From an uncultured Candidatus Saccharibacteria bacterium (GTDB lineage: Bacteria > Patescibacteriota > Minisyncoccia > Phycocordibacterales > GCA-2401445), in NCBI GenBank assembly GCA_964436015.1, contig CAYTAR010000001.1, positions 28,321-92,320 of the forward strand: a stretch of 64,000 nt of DNA, given 5' to 3'. The translations under genes were made by a program, and so were the position numbers. Numbering within the stretch: position 1 is the stretch's first letter; each line of letters begins with the position of its first letter. Positions 36,410-49,772 of this stretch are shown piece after piece. The notes beneath the pieces were generated by a model. It ran no database searches. It had not been told where the DNA came from and worked only from the letters and a program-made list of their open reading frames with translations.

Positions 36410-36418
36410 TAAGATTTT

Positions 36419-37639
36419 ATGATTTACATACATAAAAAAGAATTATTAGAGCCTGAGTATGAATTTGTCGAACGTAAAGGTCTTGGACACCCAGACACCT
36501 TGTCGGATGCTCTTGCTGAGTTTTTGTCAGTTAACTATTCAAACTATACTCTGAAGAATTTCGGCGCAGTCTTACATCATAATTTTGATAAAGTTGGATT
36601 ACTTGGAGGTGCTTCATTTGTAAAATTTGGTGAGGGATACTTAACAAAACCTATAAGAGTATTACTTAACGGTCGCGCTTCAACAAAATTCGGGGATAAA
36701 AATATTCCTGTTGAAGATTTGTTAAAATCTTGGGTTAGTGAATTTCTGCTAAACAAATTTAGAGATCTAATAAAAGAAAGTGATCTGGAAATTCATTATA
36801 ATTTAAGTACTCAAAGTAGCCCTGGTAAAACTGAAGACTTTAAGTCTACAAATACTCCTCGAAAGTTTTGGTTTGAACCAAGAAATTTTGACGATCTTCC
36901 GGAGACTAAAAAATTATTCTCCAATGATACTTCTTTGGGTGTAGGTTACGCTCCTCATTCTAAATTAGAGAGACTTGTTTTAGATATTGAAGAAACTTTA
37001 AACTCTAAGAGTTTTAAAAAGGATCATCCGTGGATAGGATCCGATATTAAAATAATGGGCACGAGGCATGGTCAGCAGTTTGGTATAACTTTATGCATAC
37101 CGCAAATAGCTAACTACGTACATTCGGTTGATGAATATAGACAAAATTTAGAGCAGACTAAACAAGTTATTTTCAGGATTTCTCAAAATGTTGGAATAAA
37201 TAATCTTGAGTTATCGTGTAATACTCGTGATAATTTAGAGACAAAAGAACTTTATCTTACGGCGATCGGTTCATCAATAGAAAGCGGTGATGAAGGTTTG
37301 GTTGGTAGAGGGAATAGAGTAAACGGGATAATTTCACCTACAAGACTTATGAGCATGGAAGGGGCTTGCGGTAAAAATCCTGTTTATCATATCGGCAAGA
37401 TTTACTATGTGGCTGCCAACGAGATTAGTAAAAAAATATTTGAAAAGTTTGGCGTCGCAAATGAAGTTTCTTTGATTAGCCAAAGTGGCCGAGATTTACT
37501 TGATCCATGGAAGACCTTCGTTACTTTATACAATTCAGATATAAGCGAAGAACTGGTTCTGATTTTTGTTGAAAACGAGTTAAAAAATATTCCAGAAATA
37601 ACCAGAGGCCTATTAGAGAATAAATTAAGGCTATTTTAA
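36419..37639 (+). CDS. mat: S-adenosylmethionine synthetase, archaeal type (PF01941-like), 406 aa
   Basis: Near-colinear with archaeal MAT: [79 protein letters not shown]; lacks bacterial MetK GHPDKIxDQISD and GGGAFSGKD motifs. Confidence 0.85.
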
Positions 37640-37650
37640 ATTTTAATGTT

Positions 37651-38775
37651 ATGGAAAAGATGCCTAATCAAGAAAAAGAAATAACAAGACTGGAATATTT
37701 GACTACCCATGTTGGTCTAGTCAGGCAACTTGATGAAAAATATTTGCTTGATGAGAAAGTATATTCAACAGATATTCAAAATGAAAGCTTATTAGAACAC
37801 ATACCGACAATTAAGCCGGATAGAGTGATTAGACAGGAAGGAGACACGACTATTTTTACTTCAGCTGGTATTCAGCACCTTGAAACTCTTGAACGTGACA
37901 AAATTAATTTAGAAAGGGAGAAGTTCAAAATTGCACAACCGGTTGTTCGCAGTCAGTTTATGGATAAGATCAAAGAAGGTTATTCGACATCTTTTATAGA
38001 TGAGGCCACCACTCAACTCGGAGTATCTGATGAAGATTTTTTTAGTATGTGTAAACAAATGGTAATCAATTCGTTAAATCATGATGCGGATATACAAAAA
38101 TACCATTTAACAATTGAGGCTCAGGATGATCGTTGGGGTCAAAAAAAGTTCACCAAATTAGTCGTTACTTTGTATTATGATGGGAACGAAGTGTCAGAAG
38201 GTGTATATATAGATAAATTTCCTAAAATTGATGGGCAGACTGTCTCTGTTGCCGAAACAACCCACAGCGCCGAAAGATTTAATTGGATTCACAGAGAAAA
38301 TCGAGACCGACCATATTTTATTGGCTTTGAAGAATTCTATAATACTGATAATAAAGATGATGTCGCAAGAATTATAGATCCCGTCAGAACTGCTACATTG
38401 ATGCTCATGCAAGGAGTTGTTCCATCACATAAGGATCCCGGATTCAGATTAAGACAGCTGATTAAAAGATTTGTGGAAAGAAATGCCGAGACTTCTTTTT
38501 CTGAAGATAGACTTTTAAATTTATCACATGATTTTTGGTTAGGAAATAACGTTGAAGGAATTGTTGATAAGGTCGAGATTCGTGAATTGTTAAAGAAAGA
38601 AATGACACGTGCTCAAAATGTACACATTGTCAGTTGGGTCGAGATAAATACTGGTAAGAAAATTAAGGTTGATGTGAATCTAAGCACAGATGAATTTCTT
38701 AAAAGGATCTATTCTTCATCACCAGAGGAGATTATTGGGGTAGTAAAAAGTATTAATTTAAAAAAATATGAGTAA
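37651..38775 (+). CDS. Alanyl-tRNA synthetase catalytic-domain paralog (truncated, 374 aa; motif 3 degenerate) - putative amino acid ligase
   Basis: Colinear matches to E. coli AlaRS N-terminal region: TTIFTSAGIQ (LLFTNAGMNQ), AQPVVRSQ (SQRCVRAG), RIIDPVRTATLMLMQGVVPSHKDPGFRLRQLIKRFVER ([39 protein letters not shown]); position of DTGMGLERI occupied by ETTHSAERF; no editing or C-Ala domains. Confidence 0.7.
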   Translation: MEKMPNQEKEITRLEYLTTHVGLVRQLDEKYLLDEKVYSTDIQNESLLEHIPTIKPDRVIRQEGDTTIFTSAGIQHLETLERDKINLEREKFKIAQPVVRSQFMDKIKEGYSTSFIDEATTQLGVSDEDFFSMCKQMVINSLNHDADIQKYHLTIEAQDDRWGQKKFTKLVVTLYYDGNEVSEGVYIDKFPKIDGQTVSVAETTHSAERFNWIHRENRDRPYFIGFEEFYNTDNKDDVARIIDPVRTATLMLMQGVVPSHKDPGFRLRQLIKRFVERNAETSFSEDRLLNLSHDFWLGNNVEGIVDKVEIRELLKKEMTRAQNVHIVSWVEINTGKKIKVDVNLSTDEFLKRIYSSSPEEIIGVVKSINLKKYE

Positions 38776-39445
38776 ACTTTTTTTAAGCGGTGGTGGCGAT
38801 ATAGAGACATCTTATCCGTTCGATAGTCTATTCTTTGATTCACTGCCACAGAGCGCGAATATTCTTTATATTCCCATTGCAATGGCAACCACCATGGCTA
38901 GAACAGAAGCATCTTTTGACTGGTTTTCAAAATTGATTTCAAGTCATTCAAGTAGCGACAAACACTTGGACTTTACTGTGTGGAATACTGGAGATTCTTT
39001 ACCTATCCTACATAATTACAATGCTGTATATGTTGGTGGTGGTAATACATATAGACTCTTGATGATGTTAGAAAAACCAGGAATGCTTGATGCTCTAAAA
39101 AAATATATCAGAAATGGTGGTATCTATTATGGTGGGAGCGCCGGTGCCGTGATTGTTGGTAAAAGCTTACGGACAGTGGATGAAGAAAATTTAGAAAATT
39201 ATTCAAAGCGTGATGGTATGAATCTTATTAATAATCTTTCTATATTCCCACATTTTTCAGATAGTGAGGAGCAAAAAAATATCATTAGAAATATCTGTGG
39301 CAATTATGCTTTAACGATAGCCGCGCTTCCTGAAGGCTCAGGTCTTGTTCTCGATGAGCGAGGCATAAGTGTTTACGGTAATATGTATTTATATGAACAA
39401 GAAAAGAAAACTCTTTTTTATACATCTGGGCAAATTATCAAGTAA
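38768..39445 (+). CDS. Peptidase S51 family protein (peptidase E / cyanophycinase-like serine hydrolase)
   Basis: VYVGGGNTYRLL, nucleophile motif YGGSAGAV, His in IFPHFSD; overlaps upstream gene by 8 nt. Confidence 0.7.
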   Translation: MSKLFLSGGGDIETSYPFDSLFFDSLPQSANILYIPIAMATTMARTEASFDWFSKLISSHSSSDKHLDFTVWNTGDSLPILHNYNAVYVGGGNTYRLLMMLEKPGMLDALKKYIRNGGIYYGGSAGAVIVGKSLRTVDEENLENYSKRDGMNLINNLSIFPHFSDSEEQKNIIRNICGNYALTIAALPEGSGLVLDERGISVYGNMYLYEQEKKTLFYTSGQIIK

Positions 39446-40595
39446 TTCTGGTCATACAGCGCGATTGCGGTATGAGTTAAAGGATATCAGCAAGACGGCG
39501 GATATTTCGATTCTGTCTTTGACAAATGAGCCTGACCAATCTTTCATCAATAAAAATCCAAATATACATTTTTATGTTTTGCCGATTAAGTTTAATGGCT
39601 GGAAAGTCGTTAATTTGGGTCATATTGTAGGGCAGATAAATGAAATAATCAGCTTTTGTAAGCCAGATATTGTTATTTTGTGTGTTGAGATCTGGGATTT
39701 AATTTTAGGGTTACATAAAAAAATATCTGACAAAGTAGTGTTTTGTGCTATATGCCACGCAATGCCATTTTTGGGTTCACCCTTGAATCCAACAAAATCC
39801 TTTGAATCAGATGTAAGGAAATTTGCTAATAAGCAAACGCTAAAATACAGAAAAAACTATATTACCAAACATTACAGAGAATTTCCTAAAATTATAAACT
39901 CTGGCTTACTAATTGCAAATAATGCAACCGTTGCTTTTTATTTCAAAAATTATTTCCCGAGGTCATCGTTTTGGAGACAAGTGCCTCATGTTACAGTTGA
40001 TCCGCTTAAAACGTCTAAAACCCTAGATATTGAGTATGATTTTTGTTATATGGCGAGAATGGAGAAAGGAAAAGGAGTAGAATATCTGCAAGATTTGTTT
40101 AGCAGAATTTCAATCAAGTTGGGTAGAAAAATCAGTGTGGCAATCATGGGCAGAGCTGATGATAAGTACTCCCAAGAAGAACTTAGAGGGCTACTTGAAA
40201 GTGAAGGTGAATCTTTTTCCGTTCGTTTTTTCGGTTGGGCTGATGATAAAACCAAAGCTGAAGTGTTGAGTAAAAGTGGTTGTTTTATTTATCCGTCAAC
40301 TTACGATAATTTTCCGACAGTGGTTAATGAAGCTATGGCTCATAGCTTACCTGTGGCAATGTGGGATACTCTTTTTTATAAAGTTAACTATTCTGACATA
40401 AAGTCTGTATCTGTGGCTACTCCTTTTAATGTTGAGCATCTGGCTTCAGTGGCCGTGAATCTGTTACAAGGAAAATCTACCTTACGTCGCCATTCTATAG
40501 AATACATAAAGGAAAATGGTGGCTCCAGATCAGTCGCAAAAGATGATCTTATACTATTTGATGAGATAATTAAGCGTTATGAAAGAAATAAATAA
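39393..40595 (+). CDS. Glycosyltransferase family 4 (GT-B; MshA/PIG-A-like retaining GT); ORF track start 39369
   Basis: C-terminal GT4 signature FIYPSTYDNFPTVVNEAMAHSLPVAMWD (EX7E-type motif). Confidence 0.8.
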   Translation: MNKKRKLFFIHLGKLSSNSGHTARLRYELKDISKTADISILSLTNEPDQSFINKNPNIHFYVLPIKFNGWKVVNLGHIVGQINEIISFCKPDIVILCVEIWDLILGLHKKISDKVVFCAICHAMPFLGSPLNPTKSFESDVRKFANKQTLKYRKNYITKHYREFPKIINSGLLIANNATVAFYFKNYFPRSSFWRQVPHVTVDPLKTSKTLDIEYDFCYMARMEKGKGVEYLQDLFSRISIKLGRKISVAIMGRADDKYSQEELRGLLESEGESFSVRFFGWADDKTKAEVLSKSGCFIYPSTYDNFPTVVNEAMAHSLPVAMWDTLFYKVNYSDIKSVSVATPFNVEHLASVAVNLLQGKSTLRRHSIEYIKENGGSRSVAKDDLILFDEIIKRYERNK

Positions 40596-41352
40596 TAACT
40601 TTGAAAGAATTTTCCCGAAAAAGAATGTTATTGTAATGCTTCATGCTCACGCTGATGATGAATCTTTCTTGTCGGCTGGTACTATAAATGAATTTATAGT
40701 ACGCAATTATAATGTCTTATTGATCTATTTGGCTACAGGTCTTATTGAAGAAGAAAAAAGAACAACAATTAGACGGAAAGAGCTCACCGAAGCTTTAAAG
40801 GTCTTGGGAGTAAAAAATGTAGAGTTTCTTGAGTATTGTGAACCTAAATATACCGTAAATGGTAAACCTCTTTATTTACAATCAATAAAAGAAATTTCAA
40901 ATAACATTAGAACAATTATTGAAAAAAGAGGTATAAAACATTATACGCTTTTTTCATATGATAAAAACGGTGGCTACGGCAATAAAGATCATCTCGTAGT
41001 ACATAAGGCAGGTAGGTTGTTATTCGTAAATTCGTCACCGGTTAGTCTACTATTTGAGATGACAATCCCAAGAGATGTATACTTGCGTTGGATCGGAAAA
41101 TATAAAAATAATGTTCCTGAATTATATTTACCGAAACTAAATTACTGGTCTACAGAATTTGGACTAAAAAACGAAGAGATTGATTATTTTTTTTTATTAA
41201 ACTCTCTACAAATAAAATTAAAGAAAAAAGCTCTTAGTAAACATGTCTCACAAATAAAGAATAAGGAATTCCCATTATCTCTCACTAATGCCGATTTTAT
41301 AGAATTATTCGGTAGAGAATATTTTGCTTATATTGATACATCGATTCTGTAA
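40579..41352 (+). CDS. PIG-L/LmbE-family N-acetylglucosaminyl deacetylase (MshB/BshB-like)
   Basis: VIVMLHAHADDESFLSAGTI (AHPDDE motif), GNKDHLVVHKAG (HxDH zinc ligands); overlaps upstream gene by 17 nt. Confidence 0.8.
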   Translation: MKEINNNFERIFPKKNVIVMLHAHADDESFLSAGTINEFIVRNYNVLLIYLATGLIEEEKRTTIRRKELTEALKVLGVKNVEFLEYCEPKYTVNGKPLYLQSIKEISNNIRTIIEKRGIKHYTLFSYDKNGGYGNKDHLVVHKAGRLLFVNSSPVSLLFEMTIPRDVYLRWIGKYKNNVPELYLPKLNYWSTEFGLKNEEIDYFFLLNSLQIKLKKKALSKHVSQIKNKEFPLSLTNADFIELFGREYFAYIDTSIL

Positions 41353-41444
41353 GGTGTCACTAACTTGACCGAAGCACAGAGCGAACATGAAGAAAGCACC
41401 GGAGAGGCTCTGTGAACGAATGTGAGCGGCGAGTGCAAGGTGCT

Positions 41445-41480
41445 TGCGAAGTGGGTTCGCGCAAAGGCTAATACATCACC
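41445..41480 (+). repeat. Right copy of 36-bp inverted repeat (pairs with 34812-34847), followed by weak hairpin/T-run 41487-41512
   Basis: tgcgaagtgggttcgcgcaaaggctaatacatcacc; lies in 5' leader of helicase gene. Confidence 0.85.
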
Positions 41481-41538
41481 AATCAACCCGTCAGAATGGC
41501 GGGTTTTTTTGCGCGAGGATACAAGGTATACTACTGCA

Positions 41539-44451
41539 ATGAGTACTGAATTTGAGAAACGGTATAAATCCCTTAATACCGAGCAGAGGTCCGCCGTTGA
41601 TACTACAGAGGGACCAGTAATGGTTGTAGCAGGTCCAGGAACGGGCAAAACTACGATATTAACGCTCCGAATTGCAAACATACTCCGTACTACCGATACG
41701 CCTCCACACGCTATTCTAGCAATTACCTACACTGACGCTGGTGTACGTGCAATACGTAAGAAGCTAACTGAAATTATAGGTGACCGAGCTGCAGAGGTGG
41801 CCATACACACATTTCACAGTTTTTCCCATTCAGTGCTCACAGAGTTCAAAGACCATGTTCCTCATGTAAGTGAAAGTGAGCAAATGAATGATACAGAGAT
41901 TGAGCACATGATTCACTCAATCCTTGATAAAAAAAAGTATGCAATTCTTAGACCGCTCGGACGCCCAGATCTCTATGTAAACGACATTATTCGTGGTATC
42001 AGCTCTCTAAAAAAGGACGCTATTTCTCCTGATGACTTGCGAACATTTGCGAGGAGGGGGATTGAAATGGTTTCTACAAGTGAAGATTCAATTTCAACTC
42101 GTGGAAAATCAAAAGGGTCGCTTAAGGCAGAAGCTAAAAAGCAAATTCAAAAATACGAAAAGACGCTACTTCTTGCAGATATGTATCAAGAATACGAAGA
42201 GAGAAAAAGAGAGGAATCACGCATTGACTACGATGATCTAATCCTTGAATTACTCGCCGTGTTCTCTCAAGACGAGTTATTGCTTCAGTTACTCCAAGAA
42301 AAGTTTTTGTATGTACACATAGATGAGCATCAGGATACAAATGATTCGCAAAATCTGATACTCCAAAGTATTATTTCTTTTTTTACAACACCAAATATTT
42401 TTATTGTTGGAGATGAGAAACAAGCAATATACCGTTTTCAAGGCGCATCGGTAAAAAACTTTTTACATTTTTCTGAAAAGTATCCTACTATTCAAACCAT
42501 TCCACTTACTCATAACTATCGTTCTAATCAACGCATCCTTGATGCATCACATGCGGTCATAATGCACAACTACACCGAAGCTAATTCTGCTACACTACTC
42601 ATTCCACTTACCGGCTCAAAAACTGAAGCCCCTACACAACCACTTACGGTTATCACTGGAGGAACTGAAGGAGACACGTTGTCTGCGCTTGTTGAAGATA
42701 TTACTCTTAAGCCCGATCAAGAAACGGTGGCTGTAATTGTAAGAAAGAATGCTGAAGTTGACTCTCTGCTTTCATTTTTGCAAGCACGCGGAGTATCTGC
42801 GTCTGCAGAAAGGGGAGTTGATATTCTTTCACACCCGCTCACTCTGTTGTTTTTTGCATTACTTCGTGTCGCGGTCGACTCAAGCGATACGGAAGCGCTC
42901 GCTATAACGGTGTCACATGGCTTGTGGAACCTTTCATTCGCGGATTCAGTGGTAGCGCTTTCACTAATAAAGAAAGGTGATACGGAAAGTGTTGTGCAGA
43001 TGATTCCACAATTAAAGTTAATCACAAAAGAAAAAACAAAGGAGGGGGTTATCTCATTTCTTATCTACCTCGCTGAAGTAAGTACATTTCTTGCAAAAGT
43101 AACCGCGCATCCTCTTTCCTCCGAAGTGTGGCGAAATATTCTCACATTAAGTGAACATATTGCGACTGCAAAGAAAACGCGTGATCCACATACAGTTGTG
43201 TCACACTTGCTTTCATATCAAGGAGGTAAGCGAGTTAAGAAAATTTTTTATACCGTTGGAGCGGAATCCGCCCGCGTATTTGTTATGACTGCGCACGGAA
43301 GTAAGGGGCTGGAGTATGATCATGTGTATATACCATACGCCACTGAAGAATCGTGGATACGAACCAAGACTCATGCGGAGTTCTTTATACTTCCAAGTAC
43401 GGGTTTTGATAGTCATCATTTACAAGACGAAAGGCGCCTATTTTATGTCGCGCTTACTCGCGCACGAAAGACAGTAACGTTTGGTTGTATGGAAAGAATG
43501 AATGATGGACGTACTGTCTCTCCATTGCGTTTTATTTCTGATATTCCCAATGAGCTTGTTGTTAACAAAACTGCACCTTATACGACGGCATATACCTTGC
43601 ATACTACTCACGGAAACTATGAATACGCAGAAAAAGAAATTCGTGATTATACAGAACAAGTGTTGCGTTCAAAAGGTATTTCAGTAACCGCTCTGAATCA
43701 CTTCATGGACTGTCCGAGAAAATTTTACTATCAAAGTATTCTTAAAATTCCTCACCCTCCGAATCCTAGTTCTGAAAAGGGAAATGCGATGCACCATGCA
43801 ATATCAGCAGTATGGAATACAAAAAAATTCTCAGAACGTGCAATTCTTGAAACGCTAGATTCATCAATACTACAGTTCCTAAAGAAATCAGATCTACGGA
43901 AAAGTGATTCTGAAGTTCTCTATGACGAGTTAGCTGAAATCATTCCTGCACTCTCAAAATCGCTCGTGGGGCACTTTAACCAAAGTGGAGTAGTTAAATC
44001 AGAGTCATGGGTAGAATCAGCATTTGTGCATAAAGGGGAGAGTTTTAAGTTGCATGGAAAAATGGACACGATAATTGAAACAGAATCAGAAATTCAGGTC
44101 TATGATTATAAAACAAAAAAAGCGATGTCTGATAACGAAATTCTTGGACTTACGAAGGGAAGTGATGGTGCATATTGGAGACAGCTTATATTCTATTCTC
44201 GACTACTCGCTGATACTAGTTCGCGTATAAAGAAAAAGGTTACCCCGTATCTCATGTTTATAATTCCAAATGAGCGTGGTGACTGTAAGACCTATACCCA
44301 CGAGATTACCAATGATGATATTTCTCGAGTTGAGGGAGAACTTACAAAGCTTATTGATTCGGTTCAAGATGGTACGTTCCTCACCATGTCTTGCAATAAA
44401 AAAGAATGCGAGTGGTGCGCTCTTTCAAGTAAGAATGACCAGAAAGACTAA
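41539..44451 (+). CDS. UvrD/PcrA-family SF1 helicase fused to C-terminal Cas4/AddB-like PD-(D/E)xK nuclease with 4-Cys cluster (ORF track start 41422 includes the repeat)
   Basis: Helicase motifs VVAGPGTGKTT (I), VHIDEHQDTNDSQ (II), IVGDEKQAIYRFQGAS (III), HNYRSNQRI (IV), HGSKGLEYDHVYIP, RRLFYVALTRARK (VI); nuclease region MDCPRKFYY...VYDYKTKK...YWRQLIFYSRLL...CNKKECEWC. Confidence 0.85.
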   Translation: MSTEFEKRYKSLNTEQRSAVDTTEGPVMVVAGPGTGKTTILTLRIANILRTTDTPPHAILAITYTDAGVRAIRKKLTEIIGDRAAEVAIHTFHSFSHSVLTEFKDHVPHVSESEQMNDTEIEHMIHSILDKKKYAILRPLGRPDLYVNDIIRGISSLKKDAISPDDLRTFARRGIEMVSTSEDSISTRGKSKGSLKAEAKKQIQKYEKTLLLADMYQEYEERKREESRIDYDDLILELLAVFSQDELLLQLLQEKFLYVHIDEHQDTNDSQNLILQSIISFFTTPNIFIVGDEKQAIYRFQGASVKNFLHFSEKYPTIQTIPLTHNYRSNQRILDASHAVIMHNYTEANSATLLIPLTGSKTEAPTQPLTVITGGTEGDTLSALVEDITLKPDQETVAVIVRKNAEVDSLLSFLQARGVSASAERGVDILSHPLTLLFFALLRVAVDSSDTEALAITVSHGLWNLSFADSVVALSLIKKGDTESVVQMIPQLKLITKEKTKEGVISFLIYLAEVSTFLAKVTAHPLSSEVWRNILTLSEHIATAKKTRDPHTVVSHLLSYQGGKRVKKIFYTVGAESARVFVMTAHGSKGLEYDHVYIPYATEESWIRTKTHAEFFILPSTGFDSHHLQDERRLFYVALTRARKTVTFGCMERMNDGRTVSPLRFISDIPNELVVNKTAPYTTAYTLHTTHGNYEYAEKEIRDYTEQVLRSKGISVTALNHFMDCPRKFYYQSILKIPHPPNPSSEKGNAMHHAISAVWNTKKFSERAILETLDSSILQFLKKSDLRKSDSEVLYDELAEIIPALSKSLVGHFNQSGVVKSESWVESAFVHKGESFKLHGKMDTIIETESEIQVYDYKTKKAMSDNEILGLTKGSDGAYWRQLIFYSRLLADTSSRIKKKVTPYLMFIIPNERGDCKTYTHEITNDDISRVEGELTKLIDSVQDGTFLTMSCNKKECEWCALSSKNDQKD

Positions 44452-45191: not shown

Positions 45192-45986
45192 GTGAATATA
45201 ACTGATTCAATTATACTTGGGGTGGTTCAAGGGATTACTGAGTTTCTGCCAATTTCGTCAACCGGACACTTAATTCTCATGCGAGATTTTTTTGGTATCG
45301 CTGATACAGACGGTCTTGCGTTTGATGCAATACTGCATCTCTCAACCGCGCTCGCTATAGCCTTTTTCTTTAGAGTAGATATTGCTCGTATGTTACAAAA
45401 AATTCTGCGCCCCATTAATTTTATCCGAACAGGTGGTGTCAGACTTCTTGCGCCTTATATAATTGCAGGTGTTCCGGTAGTTATTGTAGGTTTGCTTGCC
45501 GAAGGGTATATTGAAAGTATATTTAGATCAAGCACTCTTGTTGCATTCATGCTTATTGCGGGGGGAGTGTTGTTTATTGTCTCTGAAAAAGTAGGGGACA
45601 AACGTCCCGCTCAAACAAACACCGTATCAATTAAACAGGCTTTCTTTATAGGACTTCTTCAAGTACTCGCACTTATCCCAGGAATGTCACGCTCAGGGTC
45701 TACTATCAGCGCGGGACTTATTTCTGGTGTGTCTAGAACGACTTCCGCGCGCTTTACTTTTCTTATGGCGCTTCCATTACTAATTGGAGCGGGTGCAAAG
45801 AAGTTTTTTGATATCAGCGGTGATGCTTCTTTTGAGTACGCTCCACTTATTGTTGCTTCTCTCACTTCGTTTGCTGTTGGGTATATTTCACTCAGGTGGC
45901 TGATGAGAATTCTTTCAAAAAAGTCGCTTATTCCTTTTGCGGTCTATCGTTTTGTACTTGCAGGAGTAATACTTGCCTTTTTCTGA
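45192..45986 (+). CDS. uppP: Undecaprenyl-diphosphatase
   Basis: LGVVQGITEFLPISSTGHLIL, PGMSRSGSTISAGL motifs; 8 TM profile. Confidence 0.9.
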   Translation: MNITDSIILGVVQGITEFLPISSTGHLILMRDFFGIADTDGLAFDAILHLSTALAIAFFFRVDIARMLQKILRPINFIRTGGVRLLAPYIIAGVPVVIVGLLAEGYIESIFRSSTLVAFMLIAGGVLFIVSEKVGDKRPAQTNTVSIKQAFFIGLLQVLALIPGMSRSGSTISAGLISGVSRTTSARFTFLMALPLLIGAGAKKFFDISGDASFEYAPLIVASLTSFAVGYISLRWLMRILSKKSLIPFAVYRFVLAGVILAFF

Positions 45987-46007
45987 TAATTATGTTATAA
46001 TATATAT

Positions 46008-46709
46008 ATGACATCAGAGACTACGAGATTTATGTTTGTCCTGCCGATACTGTTTCAGAGTATTATTTATATTGTTATATATATACCATTTAAGGTCTTT
46101 GCTCGTTTTAAAGTGCATGGACTAGAAGAGTTGTCTTTACAACCACAAGGGTTAATTTTTGCTCCGAATCACACCAGTGAGTGGGATCCGATACTTGTTC
46201 GTTTCGCACTTCCACTATTCTCAAGGAAGTTCAGTCCTATGTACTATGTGGCTCGGCAAAGACGTGAGTATACAGAATCAGGTTTGAGACAGTTTTTTTA
46301 TGGAGGTGTTTTTTTCAAATTAGTTGGCGGTTATCCTCGTTACTCAGGTAAAAAAAATTACAATTACTCACTGTTCAATCATATACATCTGTTAAAAAGA
46401 AAAAAAAATGTTACTATTTTCCCTGAAGGAAAAAAGTATGTTGGTGAGATTAATAGAAAAGTTCATGGAGGGGTAGCATTTCTCTCTCATGTAACCAGTA
46501 CACCAGTGATTCCTGTTGCAATCAAAGGTATAGAAAACTTCTCATTAATACGTTTCTTTTCTTTTAAAATGAGAATTTCTGTTACATTTGGAAAGCCAAT
46601 TGATCCACTTACTATTATTCCGCAAACAAATCCAGCTGTTGAAGACTACCAACTAGGTGCACAGTTTATATGGGAAAAAATTCTTGATTTACAACAGCAG
46701 AAACTATGA
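46008..46709 (+). CDS. plsC: 1-acyl-sn-glycerol-3-phosphate acyltransferase family (PlsC/OlsA-like)
   Basis: HxxxxD motif NHTSEWDP, FPEGKK motif, N-terminal TM. Confidence 0.75.
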   Translation: MTSETTRFMFVLPILFQSIIYIVIYIPFKVFARFKVHGLEELSLQPQGLIFAPNHTSEWDPILVRFALPLFSRKFSPMYYVARQRREYTESGLRQFFYGGVFFKLVGGYPRYSGKKNYNYSLFNHIHLLKRKKNVTIFPEGKKYVGEINRKVHGGVAFLSHVTSTPVIPVAIKGIENFSLIRFFSFKMRISVTFGKPIDPLTIIPQTNPAVEDYQLGAQFIWEKILDLQQQKL

Positions 46710-47458
46710 TTACAATAAAAAAACTGACTATTCTAGAGGGAAAGAATAAAAAAACAATAGAATTTGGTATAGCAAATACTCCTGAGGAATTAGAAAAAAT
46801 TTTTAAACTTAGATTTGAAGAGTACTCTAAAAGAGATTATATTTTCAATGAGCGTTACCAAGACAAAAGAGAAGTAGACTTCTATGATGGGCTTATAAGT
46901 ACAAAATATTTCTGTGCATTCCTAGAAGGAAAATTGATAGGTACTATACGGTTAATTACTGAAAAACCACTACCAACGGAACAATATTTTGATTTTACTC
47001 CTCCAGACGAAATAAAAAATCTTCCTAAAGAAAAGTTAGCAGAACTAGGTAGATTTATTGTAATTCCACCTGATCGAGACAAAAAAATTTTTTTACCAAG
47101 AAATGTAGTTTTACTTTTTTTAATAGAAGTGCTTGTCACTTACGCGAAAGAACAAGGTTTAGTGGGCGGATATGCATTTATAAAGCAGTCTTTGATTATA
47201 AAGTTAAAAAAGCTGTCTGCGCCAATTAAGCAAATACCTGTTTATAAAATGCATTATCCAGATGATGGTTCTTTATACAAGTATTTTTATCAAAAAGAAA
47301 ATCCCGTCTTTCCTTGTTATTATGTGTTAGAGGATTTTCAAAAGTACCTGAATAAATTAATTCATTCAGAATGGTTGTTCAAAAAGATAGGCATAGGTCA
47401 TTTTCAATTACGTAGCAACTTATATACTAAGTTTTTAAAAGTTTTTAAGGTATTATAA
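46706..47458 (+). CDS. GNAT-fold N-acyltransferase, N-acyl amino acid synthase / OlsB-like (putative)
   Basis: GKLIGTIRLI and ELGRFIV motifs resembling NAS/OlsB/exosortase-associated acyltransferases; start overlaps plsC stop (ATGA). Confidence 0.5.
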   Translation: MITIKKLTILEGKNKKTIEFGIANTPEELEKIFKLRFEEYSKRDYIFNERYQDKREVDFYDGLISTKYFCAFLEGKLIGTIRLITEKPLPTEQYFDFTPPDEIKNLPKEKLAELGRFIVIPPDRDKKIFLPRNVVLLFLIEVLVTYAKEQGLVGGYAFIKQSLIIKLKKLSAPIKQIPVYKMHYPDDGSLYKYFYQKENPVFPCYYVLEDFQKYLNKLIHSEWLFKKIGIGHFQLRSNLYTKFLKVFKVL

Positions 47459-47462
47459 AGGT

Positions 47463-48167
47463 ATGTTAAATGATACTTTCTGGGAAAAATATTTTTCTGT
47501 GTATGATGCCTTGAATAAATTAATACCTTATCAGGAATTATTAAATCAAATTGTCCTTTCGGCGGGAGAATTAAATGATAAAAAGATACTTGATGCGGGT
47601 TCTGGTACAGGTAATCTCTCTGTGTTGCTTTCTATGTCTGGGGCTACCGTTACGGGAATAGATTATTCTAGAGTAGGGGTATCTATACATAAATCAAAAT
47701 TGCCGAATAGTAAAGTGGTAGTTTCTAATTTGTGCGATTTGCTTCCATTCGAAAGTTCTGAATTTGATGTTGTGGTTTCAAATAATACACTTTACACGAT
47801 TCCTAGGAAGGAAAGAGAGTCTATAGCGCATGAGTTTTTTAGAGTATTAAAACCTGGTGGAAGGGTGGTTATATCTAATCTCAAAGTTAACTTTTCACCA
47901 TTAAAAATTTATATTGACCATTTACAAAAGTCTTTATCAGTAAATGGTTTCTTGAAGACAGTTTATACAGCTTGTAAACTCATACATCCTACAATTAAAA
48001 TTTTTTATTATAATAAATTAATTCAAAACGAAAACCGTAGTGGCTCATATGATTTTTTTGAAGATAATGAGCAATCAGAACTTTTAATTAGAGCCGGATT
48101 TTCGAAAATAACTCTTGTTAAAGATGTATATTCCAAGCAAGGTGAATTAGTGGTCGCTCTAAAATAA
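47463..48167 (+). CDS. Class I SAM-dependent methyltransferase
   Basis: Motif I ILDAGSGTGNLSVLL, motif post-I VTGIDYS, motif II FDVVVSNNTLY, LKPGGRVVIS. Confidence 0.8.
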   Translation: MLNDTFWEKYFSVYDALNKLIPYQELLNQIVLSAGELNDKKILDAGSGTGNLSVLLSMSGATVTGIDYSRVGVSIHKSKLPNSKVVVSNLCDLLPFESSEFDVVVSNNTLYTIPRKERESIAHEFFRVLKPGGRVVISNLKVNFSPLKIYIDHLQKSLSVNGFLKTVYTACKLIHPTIKIFYYNKLIQNENRSGSYDFFEDNEQSELLIRAGFSKITLVKDVYSKQGELVVALK

Positions 48168-49772
48168 ATGAATAGTTTTCTCAGCATTTTAATTTATTTT
48201 GTGTTAGTCACCAATGTTATATTGGGTGTTGTTATTCTTTCAAGAGGGATAAAAAATACACTTAATATACTATTCGGGATGCTTACATTTAGTGTATCTT
48301 TTTGGTGTATAAGTGTCATTGGTTTTTATTCACCTAATTTCCCACTTGAAACTAAATGGACGGCGTGGACACATCTGTTTGCATTACTAATAAGTTATAT
48401 TTTTTTCTTTTTCAGCACCCGTTTCCCCTCCAAGATGCGCATACGTAAATTAATTTACTTCATTGCCTTCATTCTATTTTTTGTAGTTGTTTATCTACTA
48501 TTTTACAGCAACATTATTGTAGGAAATACTATTGATTTTAAATATGAGGTCAACTTTGGTTACTACATCTACGCATTGATTATTTCTTTTTTCTTTTTAT
48601 CTGGCTACTATACATTTGCACTTCAGTATCGCAATCAGAGTGAACATGTAAAAAAGAATCAAATCAAATATATTTTTTTAGGCTCGTTTTTATCTTCTAT
48701 ACCAGCTATTATTACTAATCTTTTGCTTCCTGCTATAGGTATTTTTAACTATACGTGGCTTGGTCCAATATTTACAGTCTTTCTTGTGGGCTCTATCTTT
48801 ATAGCTATTTTTAGATTTCACCTCTTCAATATTAAAGTTATTATTACTGAAATAATTTCTATTTTCATAATTTCAGTTCTAACAATAGAGATGTTTTTAG
48901 CACAATCAGTTATTTCACTCCTAACAAAAACTTTTGTTTTGATGCTCTTTACTGTACTTTCTTATTTCCTTATAAGAAGTGTCTACAAAGAAGTTGAAGC
49001 AAAGGAGGAAAACTTTAAGCTTGCGGCTAATCTCTCTAAAGCAAATGCTAAACTCCGTGCGCTTGATAGGCAGAAATCAGAATTTCTTTCTATTGCGTCT
49101 CACCAAATACGAGGACCGCTCGCTTCTATCAAGGGTTACGCCTCGCTTATCTTAGAGGGGTCTTTTGGTAAGATTAATCCTAAAGCACGTGAAGCGGTTG
49201 AGCGTATCTTTAGTTCCAGTCACAACCTCGTCCTTGTGGTTAATGATTTCCTTGATGTGTCTCGAATTGATCAAGACAACATGAAGCTCACCCCGGTGTT
49301 GCTTGATTGGAGAAAGGTGGCTAAAGAAACTATTGATGAGCTCCAACCCTCAGTTGAGAAGCGTGGTCTTAAGATTAAGTTTTCAACTGACAAGAAGGTG
49401 TCCTACCCAATATATGCTGATATAGGTAAAGTAAAGCAAATAATTTCTAACCTTGTAGATAATGCTGTGAAATATACTCCAAAGGGAAGTATTGCAGTAT
49501 TCCTTGAAAAGAAAAAGGATGTATTTCGTCTTACCATTTCAGATACTGGTATTGGTATGAGTGAAGAAACAATTTCAGTATTGTTTGAAAAATTCAGTCG
49601 TGCAAAAGACGCTGGAAAAGTAAATATTATGGGCACCGGACTCGGTTTGTATGTCGTTAAGAAGCTTGCGATAATGCAAAAGGGTAAAGTGTGGGCAGAA
49701 TCAGATGGAGAAGGCAAGGGTTCTCGCTTTATAGTGGAATTTCCAATTCATACAGAAAAAAGTGCAACATAA
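48168..49772 (+). CDS. Sensor histidine kinase with 7-TM N-terminal sensor domain (orphan: no adjacent response regulator)
   Basis: HisKA H-box LSIASHQIRGPLASI; HATPase_c N-box DNAVKYT, G1 DTGIGM, G2 GTGLGLYVVKKL; start ATG immediately follows methyltransferase stop. Confidence 0.85.
   Translation: MNSFLSILIYFVLVTNVILGVVILSRGIKNTLNILFGMLTFSVSFWCISVIGFYSPNFPLETKWTAWTHLFALLISYIFFFFSTRFPSKMRIRKLIYFIAFILFFVVVYLLFYSNIIVGNTIDFKYEVNFGYYIYALIISFFFLSGYYTFALQYRNQSEHVKKNQIKYIFLGSFLSSIPAIITNLLLPAIGIFNYTWLGPIFTVFLVGSIFIAIFRFHLFNIKVIITEIISIFIISVLTIEMFLAQSVISLLTKTFVLMLFTVLSYFLIRSVYKEVEAKEENFKLAANLSKANAKLRALDRQKSEFLSIASHQIRGPLASIKGYASLILEGSFGKINPKAREAVERIFSSSHNLVLVVNDFLDVSRIDQDNMKLTPVLLDWRKVAKETIDELQPSVEKRGLKIKFSTDKKVSYPIYADIGKVKQIISNLVDNAVKYTPKGSIAVFLEKKKDVFRLTISDTGIGMSEETISVLFEKFSRAKDAGKVNIMGTGLGLYVVKKLAIMQKGKVWAESDGEGKGSRFIVEFPIHTEKSAT

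What the first reader, a model, noticed from the sequence alone, without database searches (positions are those of the whole stretch)
46008..49772. AT-rich island: PlsC-like acyltransferase + N-acyl amino acid synthase-like GNAT + SAM methyltransferase + orphan 7TM histidine kinase (candidate aminolipid cluster)
Four genes are coupled by overlapping or abutting start and stop codons, and the region is very AT-rich compared with flanking core genes.

Established knowledge: ornithine/lysine/glycine lipids are made by an OlsB-type GNAT N-acyltransferase plus an OlsA PlsC-family O-acyltransferase, and some lineages add OlsG-type N-methyltransferases.

Seen here: a PlsC-family protein (HxxxxD, FPEG), then a GNAT-like protein with an ELGRF motif, then a class I methyltransferase, then a sensor kinase with no response regulator.

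Inference: this is a possible (methylated) aminolipid pathway with an attached membrane sensor. Alternatively the PlsC is simply the housekeeping lysophosphatidate acyltransferase.
Basis: partly seen in the sequence, partly recalled or inferred. Interest (0 to 1): 0.55.

Follow-up and report, generated by a model that had tools for sequence, protein, structure and literature searches.

The report
Swappable lipid-signal synthase and sensor module
In this tiny-genome (CPR/Patescibacteria) bacterium, an enzyme pair that should make a methylated fatty-acyl amino-acid compound is inherited as one unit with the membrane sensor half of the neighbouring histidine kinase. That is the pattern seen in bacterial "dialect" signalling loci, whereas the lipid acyltransferase next door is an ordinary resident gene.

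Summary
Four tightly packed genes at 46008-49772 encode a PlsC-family acyltransferase, a LuxI/FeeM/OlsB-clan N-acyltransferase (NAS), a class I SAM methyltransferase (MT) and a multi-TM histidine kinase (HK) with no response regulator. This is the most AT-rich stretch of the window.

The functional unit differs from the one proposed.
- **Linkage.** In 18 non-redundant CPR loci with enough flank, MT adjoins NAS in 17 (fused once). A 7TM kinase adjoins in all 18. PlsC lies within 3 kb in only 9.
- **Replacement.** In a syntenic relative (L060), NAS+MT is replaced by an unrelated 536-aa protein. PlsC stays at backbone identity (54%). The kinase catalytic half is 83% identical, but the sensor half only about 20%. 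The breakpoint coincides with the GC jump near 48,950.
- **Co-variation.** Across 18 cassettes, NAS, MT and the 7TM half co-vary (Mantel r 0.45-0.68, p=2e-4). The catalytic half does not (r about 0.1).
- **Other variants.** Other relatives carry an acyl-ACP-reductase-like enzyme in the same slot.

Best reading: a matched pair of acyl-amide synthase and membrane sensor, comparable to LuxM/LuxN or CqsA/CqsS and polymorphic like comQXP or agr.

The NAS-kinase adjacency in CPR was already noted by Bernard et al. 2020. The MT linkage, the module swap and the backbone status of PlsC are new here. Product and ligand remain untested.

The parts
46008..46709 (+). PlsC/LPLAT-family acyltransferase. A resident backbone gene upstream of the variable slot, not part of the swapped module.
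   Evidence: PF01553 at E 4.7e-11. HX4D at residues 55-60 and FPEG at 138-141. It is 54% identical to the L060 ortholog, the same level as the flanking BacA, DsbA and UvrD genes. It is only 28-40% identical to PlsCs beside other NAS cassettes. No OlsA model hit.
46706..47458 (+). N-acyltransferase (NAS) of the LuxI / FeeM / OlsB GNAT clan, belonging to a CPR-specific subfamily. Predicted to condense a fatty acyl thioester with an amino compound.
   Evidence: FeeM 42 bits, Autoind_synth 26, Acetyltransf_5 26, TIGR03694 49 bits, below its cut-off of 112. The family is tight: 42 clusters, then a drop from E 1e-65 to 1e-6. AF2 model pLDDT 92.7. Foldseek hits: BjaI 1e-8, LasI, EsaI, FeeM 1e-6. Invariant residues R36, Y40, D58, D61, R82, E113 and R116 align with the RpaI/BjaI motifs.
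47463..48167 (+). Class I SAM-dependent methyltransferase (MT), the obligate partner of the NAS.
   Evidence: Methyltransf_11 at E 1e-19. Adjacent to NAS in 17 of 18 informative loci. Fused to NAS in one 522-aa ORF at L015 6875-8443. Co-varies with NAS (Mantel r 0.55) and with the 7TM half (r 0.45), both p=2e-4.
48168..48992 (+). Sensor half of the histidine kinase: a HisKA_7TM-type bundle plus two further TM helices (9 helices in all). This is the third component of the variable module.
   Evidence: AF2 model pLDDT 94, nine helices plus a beta-hairpin at 118-128. It is 36-45% identical to the sensor halves of other NAS-linked kinases, but about 20% identical to the syntenic L060 kinase. GC is 0.293. 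Mantel correlation with NAS r=0.68, p=2e-4.
48993..49772 (+). Transmitter half of the kinase (HisKA dimerisation domain with His312, plus HATPase_c). A resident, conserved core with no receiver domain.
   Evidence: HisKA 1.5e-15 and HATPase_c 2.8e-26. All catalytic boxes are present. It is 83% identical to L060. GC is 0.399. It does not co-vary with its own sensor half (r=0.10, p=0.23).
45973..46001 (+). Possible promoter upstream of PlsC (TTGCCT-17-TATAAT with an extended TG), preceded by a weak terminator-like hairpin at 45960-45976.
   Evidence: Consensus scan only. The number of promoter-like sites in the region is not above the shuffled expectation, so this is a weak indication.

Best explanation
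The working unit is NAS + MT + the membrane sensor half of the adjacent histidine kinase (about 46706-48992). The four-gene "aminolipid cluster" is not the unit.

**Proposed mechanism**
1. The NAS transfers a fatty acyl group from an acyl thioester to an amino acid or a related amine.
2. The methyltransferase methylates the product. The most economical guess is esterification of the carboxylate, giving a neutral N-acyl amino acid methyl ester that resembles an acyl-homoserine lactone.
3. This lipophilic compound is recognised inside the 9-helix sensor domain of the kinase.
4. The kinase then changes autophosphorylation at His312 and signals to a response regulator encoded elsewhere.

**How the locus evolves**
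- Enzyme(s) and sensor domain form a matched specificity module.
- That module is exchanged as a block onto a conserved kinase core.
- Alternative modules (unknown protein X, or an acyl-ACP-reductase-like enzyme) occupy the same slot in relatives.

**Shown versus inferred**
- Shown: family assignments, conserved linkage, the NAS-MT fusion, co-variation, and the mosaic breakpoint.
- Inferred: the chemistry of the product, the site of methylation, that the sensor binds the product, and whether the compound is a cell-to-cell signal or a membrane constituent being monitored.
For: **Linkage**
- There are 37 NAS clusters. Of 18 non-redundant loci with at least 2.6 kb on both sides, MT is adjacent in 17.
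- An NAS-type 7TM kinase lies within 3 kb in 16. The other two have a divergent or slightly more distant 7TM kinase.
- Flanking genes differ between lineages.

**Fusion**
- L015 encodes NAS and MT as a single 522-aa ORF.

**Mosaic structure**
- Window versus the syntenic locus L060: sigma70 89%, BacA 65%, PlsC 54%, kinase residues 281-534 83%, kinase residues 1-270 about 20%. NAS+MT is replaced there by an unrelated 536-aa protein.
- A second syntenic pair, L005 versus L058, shows the same pattern.
- The discordance also runs the other way. L012 versus L030: NAS 70, MT 68, 7TM 73, catalytic half 28.

**Co-variation**
- NAS~7TM r=0.68, MT~7TM r=0.45, NAS~MT r=0.55, all p=2e-4.
- NAS~CAT r=0.09 and 7TM~CAT r=0.10, both not significant.

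**Composition**
- The GC discontinuity falls on the same boundary in both the window and L060.

**Variants consistent with matched specificity**
- The one MT-less cassette (L007) has a divergent sensor, 25-32% identical to the others.
- More distant 7TM kinases follow an acyl-ACP-reductase-like enzyme, another fatty-acyl-processing enzyme.

**Sensor domain**
- Conserved aromatic and polar residues sit inside the TM helices: W46, W64, T68, H69, Y126, Y132, Y135 and W197-L-G-P200.
- An independent study scored the Yonathbacteria ortholog's sensor against a CqsS N-terminal HMM at 2.3e-10, and listed the pair as a candidate quorum-sensing system (PMC7567580, Table S4).
Against: - No product, ligand binding or kinase response has been measured.
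- No response regulator lies in the window or within 9 kb in 17 of 18 loci, so the output is unknown.
- No ACP or acyl-activating enzyme is seen in the 64 kb, and CPR bacteria generally lack fatty-acid synthesis. The acyl donor is therefore unexplained.
- The methyltransferase cannot be assigned to O- versus N-methylation from sequence.
- Co-inheritance of enzyme and sensor would also arise from direct protein-protein contact, or from a sensor that monitors a membrane lipid, without any secreted signal.
- The sensor model has no significant solved homolog.
- Divergence between the syntenic genomes is deep (about 55-65% for ordinary proteins), so the swap is old. The low GC cannot be read simply as recent transfer.
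Confidence: 0.55

Rival explanations
1. Membrane aminolipid pathway. NAS acts like OlsB, PlsC like OlsA and MT like OlsG, together building a possibly methylated acyloxyacyl aminolipid as a bulk membrane lipid. The kinase regulates or monitors this pathway.
For: - The NAS passes the Pfam threshold for Acetyltransf_5, the OlsB family, in 41 of 43 members.
- PlsC directly precedes the cassette in the window and in 8 other lineages.
- A PlsC gene also precedes the slot in the X-type and reductase-type variants, so some link between PlsC and the kinase locus is plausible.
Against: - PlsC is absent within 3 kb in half of the informative loci, and within 8-9 kb in several, including Yonathbacteria, L012, L017, L022 and L052.
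- PlsC follows genome phylogeny, not cassette type.
- No hit to NCBIfam's OlsA equivalog model.
- This reading gives no reason why the sensor half of the kinase should be swapped together with NAS+MT.
- Acyloxyacyl lipids need 3-hydroxy-acyl donors from fatty-acid synthesis, which CPR genomes generally lack (established knowledge).
Confidence: 0.17
2. Canonical LuxI-type synthase. The GNAT uses SAM as amino donor and makes an acyl-homoserine lactone, as proposed for CPR "LuxI homologs" by Bernard et al. 2020. The kinase is its LuxN-like receptor, and the methyltransferase is a tailoring or unrelated enzyme.
For: - The best structural matches are AHL synthases: BjaI 1e-8, LasI, EsaI, MesI.
- The best PDB sequence hits are RpaI and BjaI.
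- The LuxI hallmark positions are kept, with Tyr in place of Phe and Trp.
- An archaeal-type SAM synthetase lies 9 kb upstream, and directly beside the cassette in L007.
- JGI annotates family members as AHL synthetase.
Against: - The family scores at least as well against FeeM and OlsB-type models: FeeM 43/43 with 42 bits, against Autoind_synth at 26 bits.
- The shared N-terminal motif is, from my own recollection, common to the whole clan, so it does not prove SAM use.
- A near-obligate, once-fused methyltransferase has no role in AHL synthesis.
- No LuxR-type receptor appears in any neighbourhood listing.
Confidence: 0.15
3. No small-molecule ligand is involved. NAS and MT (or X, or the reductase) are accessory proteins that dock on the 7TM domain, either controlling the kinase or being controlled by it. 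Co-inheritance then reflects a protein-protein interface, as with accessory proteins of intramembrane-sensing kinases.
For: - The co-variation and block exchange are equally well explained by a physical interface.
- The NAS carries an extra N-terminal beta-hairpin (residues 2-22) and a C-terminal extension (225-246), neither accounted for by its matches to the shorter (~190-210-residue) LuxI and FeeM structures, that could mediate docking.
Against: - Three or more unrelated enzyme folds would each have had to evolve an interface with the same domain family.
- All identifiable slot enzymes act on fatty acyl thioesters, which points to a shared class of lipophilic products as the common denominator.
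- The catalytic residues of the NAS are invariant, and the MT has an intact SAM motif in the window copy, so enzymatic activity is being maintained.
Confidence: 0.1

Closest known systems
LuxM/LuxN, AinS/AinR and CqsA/CqsS (Vibrio), LqsA/LqsS (Legionella): an autoinducer synthase encoded next to a multi-TM sensor kinase
   Same: - A fatty-acyl-derived signal synthase sits directly beside a polytopic membrane histidine kinase.
- That kinase has no periplasmic domain and would bind a lipophilic ligand within the membrane.
- An ortholog's sensor matched a CqsS N-terminal HMM in PMC7567580.
   Different: - The synthase belongs to a different branch (FeeM/OlsB/LuxI clan, CPR-specific) and comes with an obligate methyltransferase.
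- The kinase is not a hybrid: it has no receiver domain, and no LuxU/LuxO-type relay or response regulator lies nearby.
- The sensor is of HisKA_7TM type. Homology to CqsS or LuxN was not tested here.
Polymorphic pherotype loci: comQXP(A) of Bacillus subtilis and agrBDC(A) of staphylococci
   Same: - The variable region covers the signal-making genes plus the membrane sensor half of the kinase, while the cytoplasmic kinase half is conserved. For ComP this is documented in PMC4008528; for agr it rests on established knowledge.
- Here the sensor half is about 20% identical and the catalytic half 83% identical between syntenic genomes.
   Different: - The signals in those systems are ribosomal peptides. 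Here the module encodes lipid-modifying enzymes and no precursor peptide.
- The variation is between deeply diverged genomes, not between strains of one species.
- Alternative modules hold unrelated enzyme families.
- The response regulator is not in the locus.
N-acyl amino acid synthases (FeeM; NasY-type enzymes linked to the PEP-CTERM/exosortase system, TIGR03694)
   Same: - Same fold and Pfam family: FeeM 42 bits, and Foldseek match to 2g0b at 1e-6 with TM 0.71.
- The conserved Glu/Arg pair (ELGR) is present.
   Different: - The score of 48.6 is far below the TIGR03694 cut-off of 112.
- There is no ACP (FeeL-like) and no exosortase context.
- The protein is about 50 residues longer, with extra N- and C-terminal elements.
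- It is always paired with an MT and a 7TM kinase.
OlsB/OlsA(/OlsG) ornithine-lipid pathway
   Same: - A GNAT N-acyltransferase of the same clan (Acetyltransf_5 above threshold).
- A PlsC-family gene immediately upstream in this window.
- A methyltransferase present.
   Different: - PlsC linkage is facultative and not specific to the NAS.
- No OlsA model hit.
- OlsG relationship was not tested.
- Ols clusters do not carry a co-evolving sensor kinase.
N-acyl alanine methyl esters (NAMEs) of Roseovarius tolerans
   Same: The predicted chemistry, an N-acyl amino acid followed by a SAM-dependent methyl ester, would give exactly this AHL-like compound class.
   Different: - NAME biosynthetic genes are unknown (PMC11580390), so no sequence comparison is possible.
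- NAMEs are not known to signal.
- O-methylation here is an inference.

Membership tests
LuxI-type acyl-homoserine-lactone synthase (PF00765) | Sequence match to the family model above the curated threshold | tested here: met
   Autoind_synth 26.4 bits against a cut-off of 24, which is marginal. 39 of 43 family members match.
LuxI-type acyl-homoserine-lactone synthase (PF00765) | LuxI fold and the conserved N-terminal Arg / aromatic / Asp-x2-Asp / Arg / Glu-x2-Arg positions | tested here: met
   Foldseek hits BjaI 1e-8, LasI 8e-8, EsaI 4e-7. R36, Y40, Y45, D58, D61, R82, E113 and R116 align to the RpaI/BjaI motifs, with Tyr replacing Phe and Trp. From my own knowledge these positions are shared with the OlsB and NAS families, so they do not discriminate between them.
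LuxI-type acyl-homoserine-lactone synthase (PF00765) | Uses SAM as amino donor and releases MTA plus a lactone | not testable with these tools
   Needs an enzyme assay.
LuxI-type acyl-homoserine-lactone synthase (PF00765) | Paired LuxR-type (Autoind_bind) receptor | tested here: not met
   No such domain appears among the Pfam-annotated neighbours in L001-L008. The partner is a 7TM kinase instead.
N-acyl amino acid synthase, FeeM type (PF21926) | Sequence match above threshold and FeeM-like fold | tested here: met
   42.2 bits against a cut-off of 27, with 43 of 43 members matching. Foldseek match to 2g0b at E 1.2e-6, TM(target) 0.71.
N-acyl amino acid synthase, FeeM type (PF21926) | Acylates a free amino acid using acyl-ACP | not testable with these tools
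   No ACP gene in the 64 kb. A conserved basic helix (K160, K166) lies where, by my reading of the Pfam alignment coordinates, LuxI enzymes dock ACP (PMC4234381; conservation). This is a lead only.
PEP-CTERM/exosortase-associated acyltransferase (TIGR03694) | Score above the curated cut-off, and an exosortase neighbourhood | tested here: not met
   48.6 bits against a cut-off of 111.95. No exosortase or PEP-CTERM genes appear in any locus listing.
OlsB/OlsA ornithine-lipid pathway | OlsB-family N-acyltransferase domain (PF13444) | tested here: met
   25.8 bits against a cut-off of 22.4. 41 of 43 members match.
OlsB/OlsA ornithine-lipid pathway | Dedicated OlsA-type O-acyltransferase partner | tested here: not met
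   The window PlsC gives no hit to NF052553 (OlsA) at E<=0.1. PlsC lies within 3 kb in only 9 of 18 loci. PlsC persists when NAS is replaced and tracks genome phylogeny.
OlsB/OlsA ornithine-lipid pathway | OlsG-type N-methyltransferase | not tested
   No OlsG sequence or model was available. The MT matches only generic class I models.
PlsC / lysophospholipid acyltransferase family (PF01553) | HX4D and (F/Y)PEG catalytic blocks, and a family model match | tested here: met
   NHTSEWD at 54-60, FPEGKK at 138-143, VIPVAI at 167-172. PF01553 43 bits against a cut-off of 23. TIGR00530, the AGPAT subfamily model, scores only 29.7 against 103, so the acceptor substrate is open.
Synthase + membrane sensor-kinase quorum-sensing pair (LuxM/LuxN, CqsA/CqsS) | Signal synthase gene adjacent to a polytopic sensor kinase, conserved across lineages | tested here: met
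   16-18 of 18 informative loci.
Synthase + membrane sensor-kinase quorum-sensing pair (LuxM/LuxN, CqsA/CqsS) | Sensor domain homologous to CqsS or LuxN | not tested
   Reported for the Yonathbacteria ortholog (CqsS N-terminal HMM at 2.3e-10; PMC7567580 Table S4). NCBIfam gave no named family for the sensor half, and no solved homolog exists.
Synthase + membrane sensor-kinase quorum-sensing pair (LuxM/LuxN, CqsA/CqsS) | Hybrid kinase with a receiver domain feeding a phosphorelay | tested here: not met
   The only domains are HisKA and HATPase_c. No receiver domain occurs anywhere in the window.
Pherotype-type polymorphic locus (comQXP, agrBDC) | The variable block spans the signal-biosynthesis genes and the sensor half of the kinase, while the kinase core is conserved | tested here: met
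   Window versus L060: sensor about 20%, core 83%. L012 versus L030: the reverse discordance. Mantel tests support this. The GC boundary coincides.
Pherotype-type polymorphic locus (comQXP, agrBDC) | Peptide pheromone precursor and a cognate response regulator in the operon | tested here: not met
   A response regulator lies within 9 kb in only 1 of 18 loci. No open reading frame sits between the four abutting genes, so the module encodes enzymes and no precursor peptide.
HisKA_7TM sensor kinases (PF16927) | Match to the 7TM model above threshold | tested here: inconclusive
   The window protein scores 23.1 bits against a cut-off of 28.6. Orthologous kinases (L006, L008, L058, L060) and the second, divergent 7TM kinases in related loci pass. 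The AF2 model shows a 7-helix bundle plus 2 further helices.

The most novel reading that the evidence does not exclude
CPR/Patescibacteria carry a polymorphic "lipid dialect" locus. A conserved kinase core, often preceded by PlsC, accepts interchangeable modules. Each module consists of a fatty-acyl-derived signal synthase and its matched 7TM sensor domain. The synthase can be NAS+methyltransferase, an acyl-ACP-reductase-like enzyme, or an uncharacterised ~540-aa protein.

This would be the lipid counterpart of peptide pherotypes. [quoted passage not shown]
Probability: 0.3. Interest if true: 0.8.

Novelty: new variant of a known kind. Interest (0 to 1): 0.62.

Why it matters
- **Biology of CPR bacteria.** They are ultra-small, mostly uncultured episymbionts whose communication with hosts and with each other is almost unknown. 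A matched synthase-sensor module that is exchanged as a block would be a concrete, cloneable candidate for such communication.
- **Testability.** About 1.5 kb (46706-48167) can be expressed to identify the molecule, and the sensor halves can be swapped between kinase cores to test specificity.
- **Generality.** It would extend the "pherotype" principle from peptide signals to lipid-derived ones.
- **Annotation.** The PlsC gene here should not be read as OlsA, and the GNAT should not be named an AHL synthase without an assay.

Tried and rejected
- **Mobile-element origin of the AT-rich island.** I found no flanking repeats and no tRNA or other Rfam feature nearby. No integrase or transposase was noted, though window ORFs were not screened for these families. 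The cassette is also AT-richer than its flanks in 14 of 14 lineages. The low GC is therefore a property of the module and does not point to a recent insertion.
- **Promoter and terminator scan.** Counts were not above the shuffled expectation.
- **Response regulator search.** Searching with CheY, PhoB and Spo0F found none in the window.
- **ACP search.** None found in the window.
- **Typing the methyltransferase as O- or N-directed.** PDB and NCBIfam hits mix phosphoethanolamine N-MTs, peptide N- and C-terminal MTs and UbiG/UbiE O-MTs. Undecidable.
- **Separating LuxI from NAS by models and fold.** The three Pfam models and the Foldseek hits are nearly equidistant. Undecidable.
- **Naming the sensor domain.** NCBIfam gave nothing meaningful. 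Foldseek gave only generic GPCR-like 7-helix similarity, with no hit at E<=1e-3. I do not interpret the top hit, a cannabinoid receptor.
- **Identifying protein X (L060/L058).** No Pfam, NCBIfam or PDB match.
  - The AFDB fold library was not available.
  - The window's own contig could not be retrieved, so a second plsC, the response regulator and the acyl-activation genes could not be looked for genome-wide.
  - Craig et al. 2011 (PMC3187218) is not held.

Full report
**1. The observation**

The four ORFs exist as described:
- PlsC-like, 46008-46709
- NAS-like GNAT, 46706-47458
- Class I methyltransferase (MT), 47463-48167
- Multi-TM histidine kinase (HK), 48168-49772

The junctions are a 4-nt overlap, a 4-nt gap and a direct abutment. 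Tight packing is not exclusive to these genes. uppP ends 21 nt upstream of PlsC, and a Nudix gene overlaps the kinase end by 11 nt.

Pfam and NCBIfam confirm the families, and the cited motifs are present.

The region is the most AT-rich 3.7-kb stretch of the window, at 0.330 GC against 0.397 +/- 0.023. At finer scale, the low-GC core runs from about 46,350 to 48,950 and ends inside the kinase gene. The sensor half is 0.293 GC and the catalytic half 0.399.

No receiver domain, second PlsC or second kinase occurs in the 64 kb. Relatives place the organism in CPR/Patescibacteria (Paceibacterota-like).

**2. What the GNAT is**

It belongs to a tight CPR-specific subfamily: 42 clusters at 90% identity, then a gap from E 1e-65 to 1e-6. 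The subfamily lies about equally far from three Pfam families:

| Pfam model | Members matching (of 43) |
|---|---|
| FeeM | 43 |
| Acetyltransf_5 (OlsB) | 41 |
| Autoind_synth (LuxI) | 39 |

A confident AF2 model (pLDDT 92.7) matches AHL synthases (BjaI 1e-8, LasI, EsaI, MesI, RpaI, TofI) and FeeM (1e-6).

Invariant residues R36, Y40, D58, D61, R82, E113 and R116 align with the LuxI-type motifs of RpaI and BjaI. From my own recollection these positions are common to the whole clan, so they do not settle whether SAM or an amino acid is the substrate. TIGR03694 is missed by a wide margin, 48.6 against a cut-off of 112.

So this is an N-acyltransferase of the LuxI/NAS/OlsB clan with an unknown amine substrate.

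**3. Conserved neighbourhood**

I examined homologs from protein searches, 15 genome loci and 34 metagenome loci. They give 37 NAS clusters. Of 18 non-redundant loci with at least 2.6 kb on both sides:
- MT is adjacent in 17.
- An NAS-type 7TM kinase lies within 3 kb in 16. The other two have a divergent or slightly more distant 7TM kinase.
- PlsC lies within 3 kb in 9.
- A response regulator lies within 9 kb in 1.

Gene order varies (NAS-MT-HK or MT-NAS-HK), and flanking genes differ between lineages. In L015, NAS and MT are fused in one 522-aa ORF. Several loci carry a second, divergently transcribed HisKA_7TM kinase, sometimes truncated. The cassette is AT-richer than its flanks in 14 of 14 loci.

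**4. The decisive comparison**

L060 (GCA_040879725.1) is syntenic with the window: sigma70-UvrD-DsbA-BacA-PlsC-[slot]-7TM HK. There the slot holds one 536-aa protein ("X") with no Pfam, NCBIfam or PDB match, in place of NAS+MT. L058 holds a homolog of X (45% identity) in a DnaK-DnaJ-PlsC-[slot]-HK-TrpRS context that is syntenic with the NAS-bearing L005.

| Protein (window vs L060) | Identity |
|---|---|
| sigma70 | 89% |
| BacA | 65% |
| UvrD | 54.5% |
| DsbA | 54% |
| PlsC | 54% |
| Kinase residues 281-534 | 83% |
| Kinase residues 1-270 | about 20% |

The switch in identity falls at about residue 270-280, around window position 48,980. This coincides with the GC jump. L060 shows the same compositional boundary: X 0.324, sensor 0.319, catalytic half 0.397, rest 0.393.

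The window's sensor half is 36-45% identical to the sensor halves of other NAS-linked kinases, whose catalytic halves are only 28-51% identical to it.

The discordance also runs in the opposite direction. For L012 versus L030: NAS 70, MT 68, sensor 73, catalytic 28. Different evolutionary rates of the two halves therefore cannot explain it.

Mantel tests over 18 cassettes:

| Pair | r | p |
|---|---|---|
| NAS ~ sensor | 0.68 | 2e-4 |
| NAS ~ MT | 0.55 | 2e-4 |
| MT ~ sensor | 0.45 | 2e-4 |
| NAS ~ catalytic | 0.09 | 0.24 |
| sensor ~ catalytic | 0.10 | 0.23 |

The heritable module is therefore NAS + MT + sensor half, set on a resident kinase core.

**5. PlsC**

PlsC identity follows genome relatedness. 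It is 54% to L060, 48% to L058 and 43% to L059a, none of which is NAS-linked. It is only 28-40% to PlsCs beside other NAS cassettes. There is no OlsA model hit.

A PlsC-family gene nevertheless precedes the slot in several variants:
- X type (L058, L060)
- Reductase type (L062/L063)
- A PlsC-HAD-HK arrangement in L059

PlsC is therefore associated with the kinase locus in one clade, not with the NAS specifically. Whether it takes part in the pathway or is the housekeeping lysophospholipid acyltransferase remains open. The rest of the genome could not be reached.

**6. Breadth of the sensor family**

I searched the sensor half alone against 1.84 billion representatives. It finds 31 proteins at E<=1e-30, 522 at <=1e-10 and 1874 at <=1e-3, mostly 520-560-aa kinases.

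Sampling more distant members gave:
- One further MT-NAS-HK cassette (L061).
- Two loci where the slot enzyme is a 383-393-aa homolog of long-chain acyl-ACP reductase / the PigE N-terminal reductase (NF053554 1e-41; PDB 6jzq 1e-11). One of these has PlsC and a stand-alone receiver upstream.

Every identifiable slot enzyme acts on fatty acyl thioesters.

**7. The sensor and the kinase**

The AF2 model (pLDDT 94) has nine TM helices and a beta-hairpin at 118-128. Loop charges fit an N-out topology, by my reading of the sequence.

Conserved aromatic and polar residues cluster towards the predicted outer half of the bundle: W46 (invariant in 61 sequences), W64, T68, H69, Y126, Y132, Y135, P188 and W197-L-G-P200.

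There is no solved homolog, only generic 7-helix similarity at E>=4e-3. No named NCBIfam family matches. The transmitter has all catalytic boxes, so it is presumably an active kinase whose response regulator is encoded elsewhere.

**8. Mechanism proposed**

1. The NAS makes an N-acyl amide.
2. The MT methylates it. The guess is a carboxyl methyl ester, which would give a neutral AHL-like molecule.
3. The matched sensor domain perceives it, and the kinase core relays the signal.

The single MT-less cassette (L007) has a clearly different sensor, 25-32% identical to the others. This fits a different ligand, but it is one data point.

What is shown: families, linkage, the fusion, co-variation and the mosaic breakpoint. 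What is inferred: the chemistry, ligand recognition, and whether the compound is secreted or a membrane constituent.

Rivals are an Ols-like aminolipid pathway, a true AHL synthase, and a protein-protein partnership with no ligand. Each is listed with its tests in the rival explanations.

**9. Comparison with the literature**

- Bernard et al. 2020 (PMC7567580) list 18 CPR "LuxI homolog / putative sensory kinase" pairs as candidate quorum-sensing systems. Their pair 18 (OHA82507/OHA82508, Yonathbacteria RIFCSPLOWO2_01_FULL_43_27) comes from the same Yonathbacteria genome as my L001/L021 locus, whose sensor matched their CqsS N-terminal HMM. A search of the held supplementary files (several truncated) found no mention of a methyltransferase, and the passages read do not describe a module swap.
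- The pattern of a conserved kinase core with a variable sensor plus signal genes is that of comQXP (PMC4008528) and agr (established knowledge).
- Genes for N-acyl alanine methyl esters are unknown (PMC11580390).
- NAS genes are otherwise known to be linked to exosortase systems (Craig et al. 2011, cited in PMC7293339; paper not held).

**10. Verdict**

This is a new variant of a known kind: a synthase plus sensor-kinase pair with pherotype-like modularity, built on lipid enzymes in CPR bacteria.

Interest is 0.62. The adjacency was already published and nothing is tested biochemically. However, the block exchange of enzyme and sensor domain is a specific, new and directly testable result.

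Noticed in passing
window 35339-41352: A second AT-rich block (GC 0.33-0.36) encodes the following:
- myo-inositol-1-phosphate synthase
- an archaeal-type AdoMet synthetase (PF01941)
- a 374-aa unknown protein with a weak class-II AlaRS-core hit
- a Peptidase_S51
- a GT1 glycosyltransferase
- a PIG-L deacetylase

This set recalls GlcN-inositol (mycothiol- or GPI-like) chemistry. In L007, four of these genes (Ino1, AdoMet synthetase, S51 and the unknown) lie directly downstream of PlsC-NAS-HK. A functional link, such as SAM supply or a shared product, is possible.
   Followed up: partly
L060 6701-8311; L058 6699-8408: A 536-569-aa protein family (45% identical between the two loci) has no Pfam, NCBIfam or PDB match. 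It occupies the slot between PlsC and the 7TM kinase in place of NAS+MT. It is AT-rich together with the sensor half in L060. Conserved HWHGY and HIEPHHG motifs suggest an enzyme.
   Followed up: partly
L062 3138-6659; L063; L064 1595-4385: Another variant of the locus: PlsC, then a 383-393-aa long-chain acyl-ACP-reductase / PigE-N-like enzyme, then a HisKA_7TM kinase. In L062/L063 a stand-alone 135-aa receiver protein is transcribed divergently upstream.
   Followed up: partly
L010 5233-6900, L011 180-1898, L017 5235-6932, L013 4425-5675, L012 5108-6091, L018 7689-8765 (all minus strand): A second HisKA_7TM kinase is transcribed divergently from the NAS. Its sensor is 18-24% identical to the window kinase's sensor half in the three full-length copies measured (L010, L011, L017). 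In three loci it is truncated and lacks the ATPase domain.
   Followed up: partly
proteins P0095, P0096, P0172 (1495-1561 aa); P0075, P0081, P0085 (240-300 aa): The sensor-domain family includes giant proteins with 2-4 tandem 7TM stretches. It also includes stand-alone 7TM proteins without a kinase.
   Followed up: no
L001 5069-7061; L060 10059-10869; L064 679-1467: Alpha/beta hydrolases (Hydrolase_4 / Abhydrolase_1) recur next to the kinase locus in unrelated contexts, and in L001 and L060 a small DUF397 protein lies beside them. They may be lipases or thioesterases supplying or degrading acyl compounds.
   Followed up: no
L059 6001-6744 and 11062-11742: One Patescibacteria contig carries two PlsC paralogs 4 kb apart, 20% identical to each other. 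The second is followed by a HAD hydrolase and a histidine kinase. At least some CPR genomes therefore have more than one PlsC.
   Followed up: partly
window 41422-44451: A 1009-aa UvrD-type helicase with a C-terminal region. In the L060 ortholog this region is annotated PDDEXK_1 / Cas4-like nuclease (AddA-like). It lies between the two AT-rich blocks and is only 54.5% identical to the L060 copy, although the nearby sigma70 is 89% identical.
   Followed up: no
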